NCBI GenBank assembly: GCA_036651955.1
Contig: JAVVWU010000001.1
Span: 24,932 to 88,931, forward strand
Length of the DNA stretch: 64,000 nucleotides
DNA from: Kiritimatiellia bacterium
GTDB lineage: Bacteria; Verrucomicrobiota; Kiritimatiellia; RFP12; DVOR01
Direction of reading: 5' to 3'
Under the pieces are notes generated by a model. That model was not told the origin of the DNA. It did not search any database and saw nothing but the letters and a program-made list of their open reading frames with translations. The first letter of the stretch is position 1; the number at the start of each line of letters is the position of its first letter. This document shows, in pieces, positions 11,083 through 62,752 of this stretch. The position numbers and the translations under genes are program-made.

Positions 11083-11169
11083 TTTTCAGCCATGCAATCG
11101 CATGGCTTTTTGTTTGATCTTCGCTCTATTCGATTGCACGGAGACAAAGACTATATTATAGTTAACGGT

Positions 11170-14528: not shown

Positions 14529-14551
14529 TTCAACTGCCACCATTCTTATCT

Positions 14552-14590
14552 AAAAAAAGAGAAGGACTCTGAGAGTCCTTCTCTTTTTTT
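14552..14590. terminator. bidirectional Rho-independent terminator between convergent genes
   Basis: aaaaaaagagaaggactctgagagtccttctcttttttt: a perfect 12-bp stem with A-run and T-run flanks. Serves the GDSL gene (+) and the EF-G gene (-). Confidence 0.85.
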
Positions 14591-14604
14591 AGATAAGCGC
14601 AACC

Positions 14605-16713
14605 TTATTCGTCGTTGGCTTCAGAGTAACCGCGCACCTTGCCGTCTTTACGACGCTTGGTGACGATCTCATCCTGAAGGGTCTTAGGAACGGCTTCGTA
14701 ATGGTCAAATACCATCGTGAAGGAACCACGTCCCTGCGTGAGCGTACGAATGGAGTTGGAATAACCGAACATTTCACCAAGCGGAACAAAGGCGTGGACG
14801 AGACGGGCACCGCCGCGTTCTTCCATACCTTCGATGCGACCACGACGCTGTGACAGTGAACCGGTCGCGGCACCCATGTAATCTTCGGGAACAACAACTT
14901 CGACCTTCATGATCGGCTCAAGAAGCTGTGGCTGGCTCTTCAGGAAGATTTCCTTGAAGCACTGACGCGCAGCGGTCGAGAACGCAAATTCAGAAGAGTC
15001 AACGTCATGGTAGCTACCATCATAGAGCGTTGCAATCAACGGCAACACAGGATAACCAGCCAAAGGACCGGATTCCATTGCGGCACGCGTTCCCTTTTCA
15101 ACAGCAGGAATATACTCGCCGGGGATGTTACCGCCCTTAACCGCATTGATAAATTCAAATTCTTTACCTTGTTCCTGCGGTGCAAGCTTCATGCACACAT
15201 GGCCATACTGACCACGACCACCGGACTGCTTTTTGTGCTTGTATTCGCCATCACCAAGCGTCGCAATCGATTCACGGTAAGCGACTTCGGGCCGACCCAC
15301 TTCGCACGCCACGCCAAACTCGCGTTTCAGACGATCCACGATGATTTCAAGGTGAAGTTCACCCATACCGGAAATAATCGTTTCAGAGGTTTCTTGGTCA
15401 AACGAAACGGTGAACGTCGGATCTTCCTGTGCGAGCGTATGCAACGCCACGCCCAACTTCTCGTTGTCGCCACGTGACAAAGGCTTTACCGCGATCGAAA
15501 TAACAGGTGCGGGGAAGTCAATCGATTCAAGCTGAATCGGATTCGTCGGATCACACAGCGTATCGCCCGTACGAGTCAAAGGAAGACCAATGACCGCGAC
15601 GATATCGCCGGCATAAGCTTCTTCCAACTTTTCCTGATGATTCGCGTGCATACGGAAGAGGCGGGAAATACGCGCCGTTTTATTGATCGATGTATCGAGA
15701 ATTTCCGATCCTGCCACAAGCGTACCGGAATAAACACGGGTGAAAATAATCTTACCCATATTCTTATCGGACATAATCTTGAATGCCAACGCGCTAAGCG
15801 GTGCATTATCTTCGGCAGGACGCGTGATGGTCGGATCCGATTCATCTGTCACTGGAGGAATATCCTTCGGGCTTGGCAGATAATGAACCACCGCATCCAA
15901 AAGCACCTGAATGCCTTTATTCTTAAACGCCGTACCGCAGAAAGCAGGCATAATCGTACGAGCAATGACACCCTTACGCAAACCCTTGATGATCTCTTCC
16001 TTGGTGAGCGTACCTTCTTCAAAGTACTTGTTCATGAGCGCCTCGTCCTGTTCGGCGGCGGCTTCAATCATCTCATGACGCATTTCTTCGCACTGATCTT
16101 TAAGATCTGCAGGGATTTCAGAATAAATCTGCTTCAGTCCTTGTGTTTCCTTATCATAGGTCACCAGGCGATTCTCGAGAAGATCCACGACACCTTCAAA
16201 CGTTTCACCTGCACCCAAAGGGCACTCCATAGGAACAGGGCGCGCCTTGAGCTGATCGCGAACCTGCTTCATGACGGCGAAGAAATTGGCACCGACACGG
16301 TCCATCTTGTTCACGAAAATCAACTTTGGCACTTTGTACTTTTCGGACTGACGCCAAACCTGCTCGGACTGAGGCTGTACGCCACCGACTGCACAGAAAA
16401 CTGCAACCGCACCGTCCAGCACGCGTAAAGAACGTTCAACTTCCGCCGTGAAGTCCACGTGCCCGGGAGTATCAATCAGAGAAATCATGTAGTTTCCCCA
16501 CATGACCGCCGTTGCAGCAGAAGTGATCGTGATACCACGTTCCTGTTCCTGCACCATCCAGTCCATGGTGGCACCGCCATCATGCACTTCACCAATCTTA
16601 TGGTTCTTGCCTGAATAAAAAAGGATACGTTCCGACGTCGTTGTCTTGCCGGCGTCAATGTGGGCCATAATACCGATATTACGGATGTGGTCCAAGGGAA
16701 TCTTGCGTGCCAT
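14605..16713 (-). CDS. fusA: elongation factor G paralog (EF-G2-like, stand-alone, not in a str operon)
   Basis: GTPase motifs [17 protein letters not shown] and NKMD plus EF-G domains II-V. Start MARKIPLD at 16713. Confidence 0.9.
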
Positions 16714-19039: not shown

Positions 19040-19155
19040 CACTTTTTTTACGTCTTTGAGCGCGCCACTCGCACTCTTCTGTAGAACTCTCACCTAAAGG
19101 CAAAAAGACGTATGCGCTATGCCTCCGATGTATGACACCGCAGTGAAGCAAGAGC

Positions 19156-19214
19156 CGTACCTCACTGACCCTGACCTCGTACCTCAGTGAGGTAGAGGGG
19201 CAGACTCAGTGAGG
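19156..19214. repeat. partial, inverted copy of the multi-hairpin intergenic repeat (hairpin-cluster portion only)
   Basis: A 41-nt exact match to the reverse complement of 56459-56499, then a diverged hairpin arm in which ctcagtgagg replaces ctcactgagg. Confidence 0.6.
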
Positions 19215-19392
19215 TTCACCTTTATCTCGTATAGCTTTATAGAGGTCATCTATTTGCTTCTCGCTTAAAAGGGCTTGTTCAGAAAGTACTGTCAGGAATC
19301 ACTCGCCGTATCGCGATACGGTGATCTGCCTTCCCTCTTTGTCATCGCACCACGCACGGAGGCAAAGACACGCAGAAGGAAAAGAATATGTT

Positions 19393-30997: not shown

Positions 30998-31163
30998 GCG
31001 CGATAGTTTATCGGATAAAAAAAAGTGGCGCAAGCGTCTTTCGTTGCCGCCTCGTCCTCCACTGACCTCTGGCAAAAACTTCGCCCCACGCTCTCGCCCC
31101 TCTCCGCCGTCGCTTCGCTTCAACCGCTATCCTAAAGCGCCCTTGCCAGAATCGTGCCAATAC

Positions 31164-31529
31164 TGCATAAGTCCTACTTGCGTTGCCGACATCAAACGAT
31201 ACTTATGCAGAGCGCACGAACAGCACAAGCCGACGCCTCGCTCGCGTACCTCAGTGAGGCGGAGCGTCTACCTCACTGAGGTACGAGGTCAAGGTCAATG
31301 AGGTAGAGGTCGTACCTCACTGAGGTGCGCGGGCAAACCTTTTGCAATATCTCTTGAAATTTGTTGAGGCTACGACTAAAGCACGATAAATGAAGGAGTA
31401 AGGGGCGTCTCCTCAGACTGTTTCCCACGCCTCAAACTATAAGCGACGCTTGCCGACTTATCAGAGCGTGTTATGCCGCTCTAATTCCTGCATAAGTGTA
31501 GGAAGGAAATAAAATGTCTATTTGAAATT
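31164..31529. repeat. multi-hairpin intergenic repeat element, copy A (366 bp)
   Basis: Starts with ctgcataagt, a 28-nt loop, then acttatgcag. Then three tandem hairpins built from cctcagtgagg/cctcactgagg arms. Then a conserved core ttgcaatatctcttgaaatttgttga..gactaaagcacga. Ends with a third ctgcataagt and tctatttgaaat. Collinear with copy B. Confidence 0.75.
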
Positions 31530-31772: not shown

Positions 31773-31778
31773 TTTTCA

Positions 31779-31809
31779 AGCCTGCAAACTTATGTTTGCA
31801 GGCTTTTTA
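31779..31809 (+). terminator. Rho-independent terminator after tRNA-Tyr
   Basis: agcctgcaaac ttatg tttgcaggct followed by ttttt. Confidence 0.7.
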
Positions 31810-56183: not shown

Positions 56184-56353
56184 GTCATATTCCCTTTAAT
56201 GGGGATAGTATAGCGCGGTTTTCCACCTTCCGCAATGCGTCACGTGCGCGATCGCCACGCCACGACCGTCGCCCGCTCGACGCCGAATGCCGATTTGCCA
56301 CAAAAGTAGCCGCGCCGTCGCGTACCCGTCCGACTGTGCCGAAACTCTCCACT

Positions 56354-56718
56354 CTGCATAAGTCCACATCCGAGTGCAATCCAAAATGCCTACTTATGCA
56401 GAGGGCACAGTTTATGGCACCGTCGGGTACGCCGTGAGCCTCAGTGAGGTAAGAGGTCTACCTCACTGAGGTACGAGGTCAGGGTCAGTGAGGTACGAGC
56501 GCTACCTCACTGAGGTGCGCGGGCAGACCTTTTGCAATATCTCTTGAAATTTGTTGATGCTATGACTAAAGCACGAAGAATGAACGACTAAAGTCGCCTC
56601 CTCGGACAGTTCCACGCCGTAAAACTATAAGAGCGCTCCGCCACTCCCATAAGCGCTCTCTTATCCTTCTCTAATTCCTGCATAAGTGTCATAAGAAATT
56701 AAAACCTCTATTTGAAAT
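56354..56718. repeat. multi-hairpin intergenic repeat element, copy B (365 bp)
   Basis: Same architecture and orientation as copy A. The ctgcataagt/acttatgcag hairpin has an identical 28-nt loop length but a different loop sequence. The hairpin cluster (56437-56516) and the ttgcaatatctcttgaaatttgttga core are near-identical. The terminal ctgcataagt and tctatttgaaat are conserved. Confidence 0.75.
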
Positions 56719-60638: not shown

Positions 60639-61697
60639 ATGAAGACCATTCCAATCGTTCACTGTTTTGATTACAAATATATTATTCCTGCGAGCGTCTG
60701 TTTCCATTCTTTGTTGCGCCATGGCAATCGCGACTGCTTTTATCAACTGTTAGTCATCGGTAGTGGATTAACGCCGGAACATTGCGAAGCGCTTCAAGCC
60801 GTTGTCCGCCCCTTTCCCAATGCCTCGCTTGAAATTATCGAAGCGCCCAAACTGGATCTTCCCGACGGTGGCGAAGTGCTTTCTGCCAATCTTTCCAAAG
60901 ACGTCTTTTATAAAATGCTGATTCCCGAAATCTTTCCGCAATACGATCGCATTATCGTTTCCGATGTGGATATTGTTTACACTGGCGACACCTCGGGAAT
61001 TATGGATTTTCTCCCCGAAGACGACGATGCCTACTTTGCCGGTATTCCCGATCCCGGATATGCCGTTTGGAGAAATGAAGGCATTCTGCGAACGCTCGGC
61101 ACACCGAAGAGTTTCCACCGCTACGATCGTTTCTACACAAAAGAAATGAAAGAGAAATTGTGGTTGAACACCGGATATATGGTGCTCAACGCCAAGAAAA
61201 TGCGCGCGGATAAAATCTCACAAAAGTGTATGGCATATGCAAATGCAAATTTCAAACGGCTCGTTCTGCTCGATCAAGACGTTCTGAATATCATCTGTTT
61301 TCCGCACCTTCGCGCCGTGCCACCGCAATATATGGCGTTTGCGTTGTACCGCAAATTCTATAATGAACTGACTGCCGAACAGCGTAGCGCCGCCCCGGAA
61401 TGGGATGCAATGTTTGCAAAGCCACTTCTCCTTCACTACGTTTCCGGTCTTAAGCCGTGGAAATATCCTGCCTCTCAATTAGCGGAAGTATGGTTCGACA
61501 ATCTCATCGACTGCGGACTATTCGATCAGTGGCGGATTAGTGCTGAAAAACTGGCGCACCCTTACGAACACATTAAGAAACGCCGTCAGATTTGGAAAGG
61601 TTCGATACCTTTCACCTTGCACCCATTGCGAAAATTTGTTCTTACCATTTCCAAAGATACATATGAAACTGCCAAATATGAAGGAGGCGTGCAGTGA
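60639..61697 (+). CDS. glycosyltransferase family 8, tandem paralog 1
   Basis: IPIVHCFDYKYIIPASVCFHSLL...VSDVDIVY (DxD). About 55 % identical by eye to the next gene. Confidence 0.8.
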   Translation: MKTIPIVHCFDYKYIIPASVCFHSLLRHGNRDCFYQLLVIGSGLTPEHCEALQAVVRPFPNASLEIIEAPKLDLPDGGEVLSANLSKDVFYKMLIPEIFPQYDRIIVSDVDIVYTGDTSGIMDFLPEDDDAYFAGIPDPGYAVWRNEGILRTLGTPKSFHRYDRFYTKEMKEKLWLNTGYMVLNAKKMRADKISQKCMAYANANFKRLVLLDQDVLNIICFPHLRAVPPQYMAFALYRKFYNELTAEQRSAAPEWDAMFAKPLLLHYVSGLKPWKYPASQLAEVWFDNLIDCGLFDQWRISAEKLAHPYEHIKKRRQIWKGSIPFTLHPLRKFVLTISKDTYETAKYEGGVQ

Positions 61698-62752
61698 GAA
61701 CAATTCCAATCATTCATTGTTTTGACCACAATTATATTCTGCCCGCCGGCGTCTGTTTCCAGTCCCTGCTTGCAACAGCGAATCCCGATACGTTTTACGC
61801 ATTGCACGTTATCGGTACAGCATTAACCGATGAGGACAAAGAAACACTGTTAACGATTGTCCGCAAATTCCCGAATGCCTCGCTTGAATTTATCGAAGCT
61901 CCCGCGCTGGATCTTCCCGGCGGTGGTGAAATCTCATCGGGGAATCTTTCCAAAGACGTTTTTTATAAAATGCTTATTCCTGAACTTTTCCCACAATATG
62001 ATGTCGCGATCGTGACCGACGTAGACGTTGTTTATAAAAATGATATTGCAACCGCTTTTGATTATTTAAGCGCCGATGACGATGCCTATTTTTGTGGAAC
62101 AAAAGACGTTGGCTACTCCGTTTGGAACAACACCGGCATCTTGCGCGAGTTGGGTGCGCCCAAATTCTTCGTTCGTTACAATCGTCTCTTCTCCTCCGAA
62201 GAACGTGCCGCACTCAAAATCGGCGCCGGTTTTTGCATTTTCAATTGCAAACGTATGCGCGAAGACAAGATTCCTAAAAGATGTCTTGATTTCACCCGTA
62301 AGAACTTTTCACGTTTGTTGCTTCCAGAGCAAGACGTACTGAATATCGTTTGTGCGTCCAAGGTAAAAACGATGCCCTCACGCTTCATGGCGATTGCTTA
62401 CTACGACAAATATTATCAGGAACTCACAGCGGAACAACGCGCGAAGAATCCGGCATGGGATGAAATGTTTTCCGACCCTGTGCAAATACACTATGCTTCC
62501 GGTATTAAACCGTGGAAGTACCCTGCCTCGCCATTGGCAGATCCATGGTTCAAAGCGCTTTTTGACAGTGGACTGTTTGACCGTTGGCGGCTTTGGTTTG
62601 ACCACTATTTGCATCCGTATGAAGAAGTCAAAAAGACACGCGACCTTTTCGAGTTTTCCGTTCCCTTTACGTGGAAACCGCTGCGCCGGCTCATTGTCAA
62701 TTTCTCTAAAGATACCTATGAGGAACATGACCGTGATACCGTTCAAGAGTAA
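61694..62752 (+). CDS. glycosyltransferase family 8, tandem paralog 2
   Basis: [23 protein letters not shown]...VTDVDVVY. Collinear with paralog 1 over the full 352 aa. Overlaps its stop (ATGA-type). Confidence 0.8.

What the first reader, a model, noticed from the sequence alone, without database searches (positions are those of the whole stretch)
31164..31529. Novel structured intergenic repeat element with conserved geometry: three copies of a 10-mer plus a triple-hairpin cluster
Architecture of the element:
- The 10-mer CTGCATAAGT occurs three times: direct at 31164, inverted at 31202 as ACTTATGCAG forming a hairpin with a 28-nt loop, and direct again at 31489.
- Between them sits a cluster of three tandem hairpins at 31247-31327 whose arms are the near-palindromes CCTCAGTGAGG and CCTCACTGAGG, including the direct repeat AGGTCAAGGTCA.
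- This is followed by a conserved about 80-nt core: ttgcaatatctcttgaaatttgttgaggctacgactaaagcac.

The element lies in a divergent intergenic region between the TonB-dependent receptor operon start and tRNA-Tyr. It is not coding; the only ORF across it reads through the hairpins. It does not look like a CRISPR, a canonical REP/BIME or an IS.

Conserved stems combined with a loop of fixed length but free sequence suggest a structured RNA or a protein-recognised DNA architecture. Candidates are iteron-like regulator binding, a recombination site, or a MITE-like mobile unit recognised in trans.
Basis: seen in the sequence. Interest (0 to 1): 0.75.

Follow-up and report, generated by a model that had tools for sequence, protein, structure and literature searches.

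The report
Modular palindromic intergenic repeat family
The flagged sequence is one copy of a species-specific, non-coding repeat built from two long DNA palindromes and a conserved arm, found at least three times in an uncultured Kiritimatiellia bacterium. It looks like a new example of the palindromic intergenic repeats common in bacteria, not a new kind of RNA or mobile system.

Summary
Copy A is 31163-31528 and a second full copy B is 56354-56718. A third copy C lies upstream of trmB in sister assemblies.

Each copy has three modules:
- P1: CTGCATAAGT, a 28-nt non-conserved spacer, then ACTTATGCAG, inside a longer quasi-palindrome.
- P2: four 22-bp units around (TA)CCTCAsTGAGG(TA), together a ~95-bp quasi-palindrome.
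- A ~200-bp non-palindromic arm with an invariant 31-mer and a third 10-mer.

P2 also occurs alone at window 19136-19215 and upstream of dnaK in L037. Flanking genes are unrelated and conservation is mosaic, so this is neither a segmental duplication nor a shared promoter of paralogous genes.

I found no Rfam family, no conserved RNA fold in the arm and no strand bias in stem mismatches. There are no target-site duplications, no insertion polymorphism among the conspecific MAG contigs compared, and no transposase in about 93 kb. There were no relatives in GTDB representative genomes, JGI metagenomes, IMG/VR, plasmids or phages.

One strain carries a six-base patch that makes a P2 arm perfectly complementary. 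This is the signature of hairpin-templated repair in DNA.

Best reading: a lineage-specific BIME/BOX/MITE-like DNA repeat family, confidence 0.5. A protein-operator or small-RNA cassette remains possible. Interest is modest.

The parts
31122..31162 (.). Copy A: outer left arm of quasi-palindrome P1. It is weakly complementary to 31211-31244, and the sequence is not shared with copy B.
   Evidence: DNA fold (z = -2.1 for A). The equivalent region of B, 56320-56353, pairs strongly (z = -6.2).
31163..31172 (+). Copy A: 10-mer #1, CTGCATAAGT. It is the left inner arm of P1 and the left limit of A/B sequence homology.
31173..31200 (.). Copy A: 28-nt spacer (loop) of P1. It has the same length in B but unrelated sequence. 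It is almost invariant between strains at the orthologous site.
   Evidence: No guide-like match to neighbouring DNA.
31201..31210 (-). Copy A: 10-mer #2, ACTTATGCAG (inverted copy). It pairs with #1 (28-nt gap) and is also a perfect 10-bp inverted repeat with #3 (277-nt gap).
   Evidence: (I9, I10)
31211..31244 (.). Copy A: variable segment V2. It forms the right outer arm of P1 and the left foot of P2.
31245..31332 (.). Copy A: module P2, four 22-bp units each centred on (TA)CCTCAsTGAGG(TA). Together they form a ~95-bp quasi-palindrome centred on AGGTCAAGGTCA.
   Evidence: family D1, 22-nt spacing; z = -7.8. 88% identical to B.
31337..31367 (+). Copy A: invariant 31-mer ACCTTTTGCAATATCTCTTGAAATTTGTTGA, identical in A, B and C.
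31368..31443 (+). Copy A: semi-conserved arm (about 80% identity between A and B, similar in C). It includes the conserved words CTAAAGCA, CTCCTC, CCACGC and AAACTATAAG, and a 3-codon ATG-NNN-NNN-TAA at 31389-31400.
31444..31477 (.). Copy A: variable segment V3. Each copy has a different short hairpin here, and it is not maintained between strains.
31478..31498 (+). Copy A: 21-mer CTCTAATTCCTGCATAAGTGT, containing 10-mer #3 (31488-31497). CTGCATAAGTGT is also invariant in copy C.
31499..31528 (+). Copy A: tail ending in TCTATTTGAAAT. It is shared by A and B (about 77%) but largely absent from C, so it marks the right limit of A/B homology.
56320..56718 (+). Copy B, same orientation and layout. 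Long P1 palindrome 56320-56431, with 10-mers at 56354 and 56392. P2 array 56435-56522. Invariant 31-mer 56527-56557. 10-mer #3 at 56678-56687. End at 56718. It lies between a Ser/Thr kinase gene (minus strand) and metY (plus strand).
19136..19215 (-). Stand-alone P2 array with no P1, no 31-mer and no 10-mer. It lies upstream of the tRNA-Gly/tRNA-Lys operon.
   Evidence: I1, I2; nhmmer E = 2e-17

Best explanation
The element belongs to a lineage-specific family of non-coding, modular, palindrome-rich intergenic DNA repeats in an uncultured Kiritimatiellia species. Its closest analogues in architecture are BIME/REPIN, BOX and MITE-type repeats.

A full copy, about 370-410 bp, has three modules:
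1. P1, a long quasi-palindrome. Its invariant inner arms are CTGCATAAGT and ACTTATGCAG, around a 28-nt spacer of free sequence.
2. P2, about 95 bp, made of four 22-bp units with a palindromic core of alternating central base. P2 also exists as an independent unit.
3. A non-palindromic arm of about 200 bp, with an invariant 31-mer and a third CTGCATAAGT.

Shown:
- There are at least 3 full or near-full copies and at least 2 P2-only copies, all in promoter-containing intergenic regions with unrelated flanks.
- Conservation between copies is mosaic.
- I detected no RNA-family match and no coding signal.
- The copies are similar enough to break or mis-join several independent assemblies.
- One strain carries a clustered six-base change that makes a P2 arm the perfect complement of its partner.

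Inferred:
- The element acts as DNA. Its palindromes extrude as hairpins or cruciforms, either in single-stranded DNA at the replication fork or in the negatively supercoiled DNA upstream of active promoters.
- Complementarity of the arms is kept up by hairpin-templated repair and by conversion between copies, not by selection on an RNA.
- The family originally spread through a trans-acting enzyme that recognises the 10-mer and the hairpins, such as a transposase or an HUH/Y1-type protein encoded elsewhere.
- It is now essentially immobile, and any effect on neighbouring promoters is secondary.
For: - Two full copies with the same geometry, and chance is excluded.
- Copy C upstream of trmB is seen at five contig ends and in two chimeric joins, where the switch point falls inside the shared array.
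- P2-only copies are at window 19136-19215 and L037 16204-16298. The L037 copy keeps a decayed stub of the core.
- Flanking genes are unrelated: TonB receptor and tRNA-Tyr, kinase and metY, an unknown neighbour and trmB, tRNA-Gly/Lys, and GH31 and dnaK.
- Identity is mosaic: 100% in the 10-mers and the 21-mer, 97% across the junction plus the fully identical 31-mer, 88% in the array, and background level in the spacer, V2 and V3.
- The palindromes fold far better than shuffled sequence: z = -7.8 and -6.5 for P2, and -6.2 for P1 of copy B.
- In L023, copy A has six substitutions within 31320-31338. Five of them turn the right arm into the exact reverse complement of CCTCGCTCGCGTACCTCA.TGAGG. 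This fits quasi-palindrome correction (from my own knowledge).
- There is no Rfam hit at gathering or at E <= 10.
- The consensus fold of the arm is weak: -9 and -14.7 kcal/mol per 200 nt, with 1-3 compensatory pairs.
- G.T and A.C mismatch counts are similar: 5/5, 6/2, 7/4 and 3/2.
- ORFs across the element end at different places in A, B and C, by my own reading of the frames (for A and B, the alignment for C). Their translations match no predicted protein.
- Contigs of MAG and Logan assemblies end inside the element: L032, L033, L034, L035, L038, L052, L053, L055 and L056.
Against: - Only about 93 kb of the genome could be read, so a high genome-wide copy number is an extrapolation. Copy C was found through assembly chimeras, not by random sampling.
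- Mobility is not shown. There are no target-site duplications. No copy is gained or lost in the conspecific MAG contigs compared, over about 60 kb of the region. No transposase or RAYT is present in the accessible DNA.
- An invariant 31-mer and seven identical 10-mers, next to segments at background identity, suggest sequence-specific selection. A decaying selfish repeat would not need that, so the pattern favours a protein-binding or RNA function.
- All copies sit upstream of promoters, and three of the five are next to tRNA genes or trmB. Classical REPs instead lie mostly at 3' ends of genes (from my own knowledge).
- No relatives were found elsewhere, so the evolutionary history cannot be traced.
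Confidence: 0.5

Rival explanations
1. It is a cis-regulatory protein-binding cassette. A dedicated DNA-binding protein recognises CTGCATAAGT. Two inverted sites 38 bp apart, plus a third site about 290-325 bp downstream, would allow a DNA loop. Another dimeric protein, or the same one, binds the four phased 22-bp palindromes, which sit about two helical turns apart and so face the same side of the helix. The cassette would tune the adjacent promoters of tRNA-Tyr, tRNA-Gly/Lys, trmB, metY and dnaK.
For: - The 10-mer is exactly conserved in every instance seen, and the 31-mer is invariant, while neighbouring segments are at background identity.
- The array has a strict 22-bp period with a palindromic core.
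- All five loci are promoter-containing intergenic regions. Two of the three tRNA loci in the window have an array upstream, and copy C is upstream of trmB.
- The central base of each palindrome varies freely, as expected for a dimer site.
Against: - No regulator gene is linked to any copy.
- The distance from the array to the downstream promoter varies widely, roughly 90 to 380 nt, and the L037 array is in the opposite orientation.
- The downstream genes share no obvious pathway.
- The L023 variant rewrites 5 bases at the array-core junction with no apparent cost.
- The complementarity of the outer arms of P1 and P2 has no role in this model.
Confidence: 0.2
2. It is a family of paralogous small-RNA genes with their own promoter. 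A sigma-54-type -24/-12 element (GGGCAa-N5-TTGCA, 31331-31346) would drive a transcript of about 150-180 nt. Its 5' end would be the invariant block, acting as a seed. P1 or P2 would serve as upstream activator sites, as in GlmY/GlmZ or the Qrr RNAs.
For: - The -24/-12-like motif is conserved in A and B.
- The invariant block recalls the 32-nt identical region of the Qrr RNAs (from my own knowledge).
- The organism plausibly uses sigma-54. TGGCACGGTGAGTGCA lies about 75 nt upstream of dnaK (L037), and TGGCACGATTCTGGCA at 31144-31159 (minus strand) lies upstream of the TonB receptor gene.
- The mosaic conservation is typical of sRNA paralogues.
Against: - The essential GG of the -24 element is lost in copy C (AGTCAG) and in copy A of L023 (GAGCGA).
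- The two-mismatch motif is common by chance, with 36 expected per window.
- There is no intrinsic terminator.
- There is no conserved fold and almost no covariation on either strand.
- There is no Rfam hit.
- P2-only copies lack the promoter and the arm.
Confidence: 0.12
3. It is a still-functional non-autonomous mobile or recombination unit. One version is a 297-bp MITE bounded by the perfect 10-bp inverted repeats ACTTATGCAG (31201) and CTGCATAAGT (31488). The other is a site-specific recombination substrate in which the three 10-mers are recombinase sites. In both, an enzyme encoded elsewhere in the genome does the moving.
For: - The terminal-inverted-repeat geometry is exact in A and B (I10).
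- There are at least 3 copies in unrelated contexts.
- The extra 10-mer sits at a fixed 28-nt distance in both copies.
- Different left flanks are joined to the right part of copy C in two MAGs (L051, L054). These could be real recombinants and not chimeras.
Against: - No target-site duplication flanks either candidate boundary.
- Homology between A and B continues 31 nt beyond the right repeat.
- There is no presence/absence polymorphism among the conspecific MAG contigs compared.
- No transposase or recombinase is in reach.
- The 28-nt and 13-nt spacings do not fit the 6-8 bp crossover regions of tyrosine-recombinase core sites (from my own knowledge).
Confidence: 0.1
4. It is a recent segmental duplication, a shared promoter or leader of paralogous genes, or chance similarity.
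For: None beyond the existence of two similar stretches.
Against: - The flanks are unrelated immediately outside the element, and the neighbouring genes are not paralogous.
- Divergence is mosaic, not uniform.
- A third copy and P2-only copies exist.
- Motif counts far exceed the shuffles.
Confidence: 0.02

Closest known systems
BIME / REP / REPIN palindromic repeats (enterobacteria, Pseudomonas); features recalled from my own knowledge
   Same: P2 is a cluster of short palindromic units whose orientation, marked by the central base, alternates. Short linkers separate the units, and adjacent or nested units pair into long hairpins. P2 is intergenic, occurs several times, and also occurs as a stand-alone module.
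   Different: - There is no sequence similarity.
- The units are 22 bp with a 11-15-bp palindrome, whereas REPs are ~35-bp imperfect palindromes with a 5' GTAG head.
- All copies lie upstream of promoters, not at 3' ends of genes.
- No RAYT could be looked for.
- The full element carries two further modules, P1 and the 200-bp arm, that BIMEs lack.
BOX elements of Streptococcus pneumoniae (boxA - boxB(n) - boxC); recalled from my own knowledge
   Same: The design is modular: a left module, an internal short unit repeated in tandem, and a right module. The element is non-coding, strongly self-folding and intergenic. Copies differ by module content.
   Different: - It is unrelated in sequence and in host phylum.
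- The internal units here are palindromic and form one large quasi-palindrome.
- The unit number is 4 in every copy seen, whereas boxB number varies.
- BOX elements number more than 100 per genome, a count that could not be made here.
MITEs such as Correia/NEMIS elements
   Same: It is small (about 300-400 bp) and non-coding, with exact 10-bp inverted repeats (31201 and 31488). Copies sit next to promoters of unrelated genes.
   Different: - There are no target-site duplications.
- Homology extends beyond the inverted repeats.
- A third copy of the repeat lies 28 nt outside the left one.
- No parent IS is known, and no insertion polymorphism was seen.
Sigma-54-dependent sRNA cassettes (GlmY/GlmZ, Qrr1-5)
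   Same: There are paralogous intergenic units with upstream inverted repeats, a -24/-12-like motif in A and B, and a perfectly conserved ~30-nt block.
   Different: - The -24 GG is not conserved in copy C or in one strain's copy A.
- There is no terminator and no conserved fold.
- There is no transcript evidence and no enhancer-binding protein nearby.

Membership tests
REP/BIME/REPIN | Short imperfect palindromic units in alternating orientation that pair into hairpins | tested here: met
   Four 22-bp units with central base G, C, A/G, C. They fold as nested or adjacent hairpins, with z = -6.5 to -7.8.
REP/BIME/REPIN | Conserved GTAG head 5' of each ~35-nt palindrome | tested here: inconclusive
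   Units are flanked by GTAC or GTAG/CTAC, which overlap the palindrome and do not precede it. The unit length of 22 bp is also shorter.
REP/BIME/REPIN | Tens to hundreds of copies per genome | not testable with these tools
   Only about 93 kb of the species is accessible, and it holds 5 arrays. The genome is absent from the DNA-searchable collections.
REP/BIME/REPIN | A cognate RAYT (Y1 transposase) gene in the genome, often flanked by REPs | not testable with these tools
   None is present in the window or in the flanks read. The rest of the genome cannot be reached.
REP/BIME/REPIN | Typical location at 3' ends of genes or inside operons | tested here: not met
   All five loci are promoter-containing intergenic regions. 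Three of them (A, B and the stand-alone array at 19136) lie between divergent genes.
MITE | Terminal inverted repeats | tested here: met
   ACTTATGCAG (31201-31210) and CTGCATAAGT (31488-31497) are 10/10 complementary, and the same is true in B.
MITE | Target-site duplication flanking the repeats | tested here: not met
   No direct repeat is present at either candidate boundary in A, B or C.
MITE | Insertion polymorphism (filled and empty sites) among strains | tested here: not met
   Copies A, B and the stand-alone arrays are present, at 98-99.5% identity, in every conspecific MAG contig that spans them. No extra copies were found in about 60 kb of compared sequence.
MITE | A parent IS with the same ends | not testable with these tools
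BOX-type modular repeat | Left module, tandem internal unit and right module, with copies that differ in module content | tested here: met
   The layout is P1, then 4 x 22 bp, then the arm. P2-only copies exist, and copy C lacks the tail. This is analogy only, with no homology.
Known RNA family (Rfam 15) | Covariance-model match at or near the gathering score | tested here: not met
   Apart from the tRNA genes themselves, only sub-threshold chance hits appear, mostly miRNA-hairpin models on the palindromes.
Structured RNA (any) | A conserved fold with compensatory changes and G.U tolerance on one strand | tested here: not met
   The arm folds weakly, at -9 and -14.7 kcal/mol with 1-3 compensatory pairs. 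The palindromes show balanced G.T and A.C mismatches. Power is low, with 3 paralogues plus strain variants.
Sigma-54 promoter | Invariant GG at -24 and GC at -12 with fixed spacing | tested here: inconclusive
   The feature is present in A and B. The GG is lost in copy C and in copy A of L023.
CRISPR array | Direct repeats of 23-50 bp separated by unique spacers of similar length, with cas genes | tested here: not met
   The period is 22 bp. The linkers are 7-11 nt and resemble one another, the units are palindromic, and there are no cas genes.

The most novel reading that the evidence does not exclude
The three exact CTGCATAAGT sites, the invariant 31-mer and the phased 22-bp palindromes could form a dedicated control cassette. 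It could be an operator set bound by an unknown protein, or a family of trans-acting small RNAs. It would be placed upstream of translation-related genes (tRNA-Tyr, tRNA-Gly/Lys, trmB) and others. That would make it a previously unseen regulatory architecture in Kiritimatiellota, not a passive repeat.
Probability: 0.15. Interest if true: 0.6.

Novelty: new member of a known kind. Interest (0 to 1): 0.3.

Why it matters
If the best reading holds, this adds a well-defined modular palindromic repeat family to a phylum where none has been described.

It has practical consequences. The repeat breaks metagenome-assembled genomes of this species, and it appears to have produced two chimeric joins in public MAGs.

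It also gives a clean natural example of quasi-palindrome correction, seen as a six-base patch in one strain.

If the invariant 10-mer and 31-mer turn out to be protein or RNA recognition sequences, the element would mark a new regulon linked to tRNA genes in an uncultured lineage.

Tried and rejected
1. **Core 22-mer scans.** Exact scans for GCAATATCTCTTGAAATTTGTT gave 0 hits in IMG/VR, GTDB representative genomes and JGI metagenomes. The species is absent from those DNA-searchable collections, so I could not count copies genome-wide.
2. **Palindrome-pair pattern.** CCTCAsTGAGG-N8-13-CCTCAsTGAGG gave 0 viral hits. It gave 16 hits in GTDB, all in unrelated phyla (Streptomyces, Chloroflexota, a Prevotellaceae MAG, Burkholderiaceae and others), inside their own tandem arrays. 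Among the nine neighbouring genes I scanned, only the three orthologous Burkholderiaceae loci share a gene, so there is no common context. I judged these to be ascertainment hits, not relatives.
3. **P1 arm pattern.** CTGCATAAGT-N26-30-ACTTATGCAG in JGI metagenomes gave 10 hits, about the number expected by chance. None carried any other part of the element.
4. **ORF trick.** I used six-frame peptides of the element as a protein query, hoping to catch spurious ORFs called on other copies. Nothing was found at E <= 10.
5. **Rfam.** Searches at the gathering threshold and at E <= 10 on both copies found nothing relevant.
6. **Plasmid and phage BLAST.** There was no plasmid match, and only a 37-nt chance match in Klebsiella phages.
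7. **Sigma-54 promoter idea.** It looked attractive for A and B but is undermined by copy C and by L023.
8. **Sigma-70 promoter or terminator inside the element.** The scans gave no more sites than their shuffle controls, and no site is shared by A and B. The tRNA-Tyr and metY promoters lie outside the element.
9. **Programmable or guide-like variable segments.** There are no matches to neighbouring or window DNA beyond chance. The spacers are also stable between strains.
10. **Coding potential.** ORFs through the element end at different points in A, B and C (plus my reading of the alignment).
11. **Left part of copy C.** Every assembly breaks or mis-joins there.
Full report
**1. What is in the sequence**

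- CTGCATAAGT is at 31163-31172 and 31488-31497, and its reverse complement ACTTATGCAG is at 31201-31210.
- CCTCAGTGAGG is at 31249, and CCTCACTGAGG at 31271 and 31315.
- AGGTCAAGGTCA is at 31286-31297.

The exact 10-mer occurs six times in 64 kb. All six lie in two places with near-identical geometry: 31163/31201/31488 and 56354/56392/56678. The 11-mer palindrome has 8 matches against 0.44 expected.

A second full copy, B, therefore lies at 56354-56718. It aligns with copy A (31163-31528) from the first 10-mer to ...TCTATTTGAAAT, and the flanks on both sides are unrelated.

**2. Source organism and context**

MetY, the kinase, the TonB receptor and the V-ATPase proteins of the window are identical or nearly identical to proteins of several NCBI MAGs named Kiritimatiellia bacterium. 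The window belongs to a 105,887-nt contig.
- Copy A lies between a TonB-dependent receptor gene (minus strand) and tRNA-Tyr (plus strand).
- Copy B lies between a Ser/Thr kinase gene (minus strand) and metY (plus strand).
- No transposase, recombinase, reverse transcriptase or enhancer-binding protein is encoded in the window or in the flanks I could fetch.
- By my own reading of the sequence, candidate sigma-70 promoters of tRNA-Tyr and metY lie outside the element.

**3. Anatomy**

A full copy has three modules.

*P1.* The two inverted 10-mers enclose 28 nt. The length is the same in A and B, but the sequence is unrelated. In B the complementarity continues outward to give a ~112-nt quasi-palindrome, 56320-56431 (z = -6.2). 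In A the extension is weak (z = -2.1). The outer arms differ in sequence between A and B.

*P2.* There are four 22-bp units, each with the core (TA)CCTCAsTGAGG(TA). Family D1 shows the strict 22-nt spacing. The units pair either side by side or nested, giving a ~95-nt quasi-palindrome (z = -7.8 in A, -6.5 in B).

*The arm.* This is about 200 nt and not palindromic. It begins with the 31-mer ACCTTTTGCAATATCTCTTGAAATTTGTTGA. A semi-conserved stretch follows, at about 80% identity. Next come a variable stretch, the block CTCTAATTCCTGCATAAGTGT, and a tail.

**4. More copies**

P2 occurs alone at window 19136-19215, upstream of the tRNA-Gly/tRNA-Lys operon. It also occurs alone in L037 at 16204-16298, between a GH31 gene and dnaK about 5 kb to the left of the window. 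There it keeps a decayed stub of the first ~35 nt of the core.

A third copy, C, lies upstream of trmB.
- Its right part, from array unit 3 or 4 to the third 10-mer, sits at the end of five contigs: L052, L053, L055 and L056 directly, and L051 and L054 as joins.
- In L051 it is joined to the left part of B. In L054 it is joined to the left part of A. In both cases the switch falls inside the identical stretch of the array.
- I read these two joins as assembly chimeras, but real recombinants cannot be excluded.
- The left part of copy C was not recovered in any assembly.

Other MAG and Logan contigs also end inside the element: L032, L033, L034, L035 and L038.

In about 93 kb of accessible sequence there are therefore three full or near-full copies and two P2-only copies. 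The genome-wide number cannot be counted. The core 22-mer has no match in IMG/VR, GTDB representatives or JGI metagenomes.

**5. Comparison of A, B and C**
- The 31-mer and CTGCATAAGTGT are invariant in all three.
- The junction GTGCGCGGGCA is changed in C to GTGCGCAGTCA.
- The tail TCTATTTGAAAT is not kept in C.
- Identity is mosaic: 100% for the 10-mers and the 21-mer, 97% for the junction plus the fully identical 31-mer, 88% for the array, 80% for the semi-conserved arm, and background level for the spacer, V2 and V3. Unrelated flanks score 52-57% under the same gapped measure.

This pattern, together with the unrelated flanks and downstream genes (tRNA-Tyr, metY, trmB), excludes a recent segmental duplication and a shared leader of paralogous genes.

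**6. RNA or DNA?**
- No Rfam family matches at the gathering threshold or at E <= 10.
- The consensus fold of the arm is weak on both strands, at -9 and -14.7 kcal/mol per 200 nt, with one and three compensatory pairs.
- Stem mismatches in P2 show no clear preference for G.T over A.C. The counts are 5/5, 6/2, 7/4 and 3/2, so there is no sign of selection on one transcribed strand.
- The V3 hairpin of copy B is broken by a polymorphism in three of four strains.
- Translations through the element end at different points in the three copies, and they match nothing in the protein collection.

Statistical power is low, with three paralogues plus strain variants. What evidence there is points to DNA.

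**7. A hairpin-templated mutation**

In L023 (GCA_036649275.1), copy A differs from the window by six substitutions clustered in 31320-31338. Five of them convert the right arm of P2 into the exact reverse complement of the left arm, CCTCGCTCGCGTACCTCA.TGAGG. The outer 24 positions then pair perfectly except at the central base.

A and B share the unconverted sequence, so the L023 state is derived. A single event that perfects a quasi-palindrome is the classical signature of template switching within a hairpin. That interpretation comes from my own knowledge of quasi-palindrome correction. It indicates that these palindromes do fold in vivo as DNA.

The same patch destroys the GG of the sigma-54-like motif.

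**8. The sigma-54 idea**

GGGCAa-N5-TTGCA at 31331-31346, and the equivalent in B, fits the -24/-12 consensus with two mismatches. The organism may use sigma-54. TGGCACGGTGAGTGCA lies about 75 nt upstream of dnaK, and TGGCACGATTCTGGCA (31144-31159, minus strand) lies upstream of the TonB receptor gene.

However, two-mismatch hits are common, with 36 expected per window. The GG is also lost in copy C and in L023. I therefore keep an sRNA cassette only as a minor rival.

**9. Mobility**
- ACTTATGCAG (31201) and CTGCATAAGT (31488) form perfect 10-bp inverted repeats around 297 bp, which is a MITE-like geometry.
- Against this, there is no target-site duplication. A/B homology continues 31 nt beyond the right repeat. 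A third 10-mer sits 28 nt outside the left repeat.
- Orthologous copies in the conspecific MAG contigs compared are 98-99.5% identical. No copy is gained or lost over about 60 kb of compared sequence.
- The variable segments have no guide-like match to neighbouring DNA, and they are stable between strains.

**10. Position**

All five loci are promoter-containing intergenic regions. Two of the three tRNA loci in the window have an array upstream, and copy C is upstream of trmB. By a rough post-hoc estimate, the chance of two of three arrays falling in three of about 50 intergenic regions is about 0.01.

This could reflect a regulatory role. It could equally reflect a preference of palindromes, or of the enzyme that spread them, for the negatively supercoiled DNA upstream of strong or divergent promoters. 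That second reading is inference.

**11. Conclusion**

The most economical reading is a lineage-specific, modular, palindrome-rich intergenic DNA repeat family. Its P2 module resembles BIME/REPIN repeats, its overall design resembles BOX elements, and its 10-bp inverted repeats resemble MITEs. It shows no homology to any of these, and several of their defining features are unmet or untestable.

The exact conservation of the 10-mer and the 31-mer is the main unexplained point. It keeps a protein-operator or sRNA function alive as a rival.

I rate it a new member of a known kind, with modest interest.

Noticed in passing
L023 9333-9351 (orthologue of window 31320-31338): Six clustered substitutions in one strain make the right arm of the P2 palindrome the perfect complement of the left arm. 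This looks like a natural quasi-palindrome-correction (template-switch) event.
   Followed up: yes
L051 9470-9870 (GCA_036659595.1) and L054 825-1452 (GCA_036648375.1): In two public MAG contigs, the left part of copy B (L051) or copy A (L054) is joined to the right part of a third copy upstream of trmB. The switch falls inside the shared 22-bp array. These are probably assembly chimeras caused by the repeat, though real recombinants are possible.
   Followed up: partly
window 31144-31159 (minus strand): TGGCACGATTCTGGCA is one mismatch from the sigma-54 -24/-12 consensus. It is intergenic, correctly oriented, about 135 nt upstream of the TonB-dependent receptor gene, and directly abuts copy A.
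   Followed up: partly
L037 16310-16440: Upstream of dnaK-groES-groEL there is a near-consensus sigma-54 motif, TGGCACGGTGAGTGCA. Upstream of it are repeated GTGCCA(C) words and the perfect inverted repeat CCAAACCGTGCCA-N12-TGGCACGGTTTGG. Together these suggest sigma-54/enhancer-type control of the chaperone operon in this lineage.
   Followed up: no
window 31389-31400, 56579-56590; copy C in L052: A three-codon frame ATG-NNN-NNN-TAA keeps its start and stop in copies A, B and C while the two inner codons vary (MKE, MND, MKG/MNG). There is no clear ribosome-binding site, so it is probably chance.
   Followed up: no
L008, L012, L019 (Prevotellaceae MAG); L009, L010 (Chloroflexota MAG); L011, L016, L017 (Burkholderiaceae, downstream of an FMN-dependent dehydrogenase gene): Unrelated genomes carry their own tandem arrays, with a 20-23 bp period, built on the same 11-mer palindrome CCTCAsTGAGG. 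Only the three orthologous Burkholderiaceae loci share a neighbouring gene. I judged these to be ascertainment hits, but the recurrence of this palindrome was not controlled against another arbitrary palindrome.
   Followed up: partly
window 60639-61697 and 61694-62752: Two adjacent glycosyltransferase family 8 genes of 352 aa each are tandem paralogues, about 78-80% identical at the DNA level over the repeat blocks.
   Followed up: no
window 14545-14597: A perfect 26-bp inverted repeat with a 1-nt centre, flanked by A/T runs, lies between the convergent GDSL-lipase and EF-G genes. It is probably a bidirectional terminator.
   Followed up: no
window 31775-31800 and 11085-11104: The terminator after tRNA-Tyr (GCCTGCAAAC-TTAT-GTTTGCAGGC) contains ACTTATG and begins and ends like the P1 arms (CTGCA...TGCAG). 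The 3' flanks of tRNA-Val and tRNA-Tyr are also similar to each other (family D11). Both are probably coincidental.
   Followed up: no
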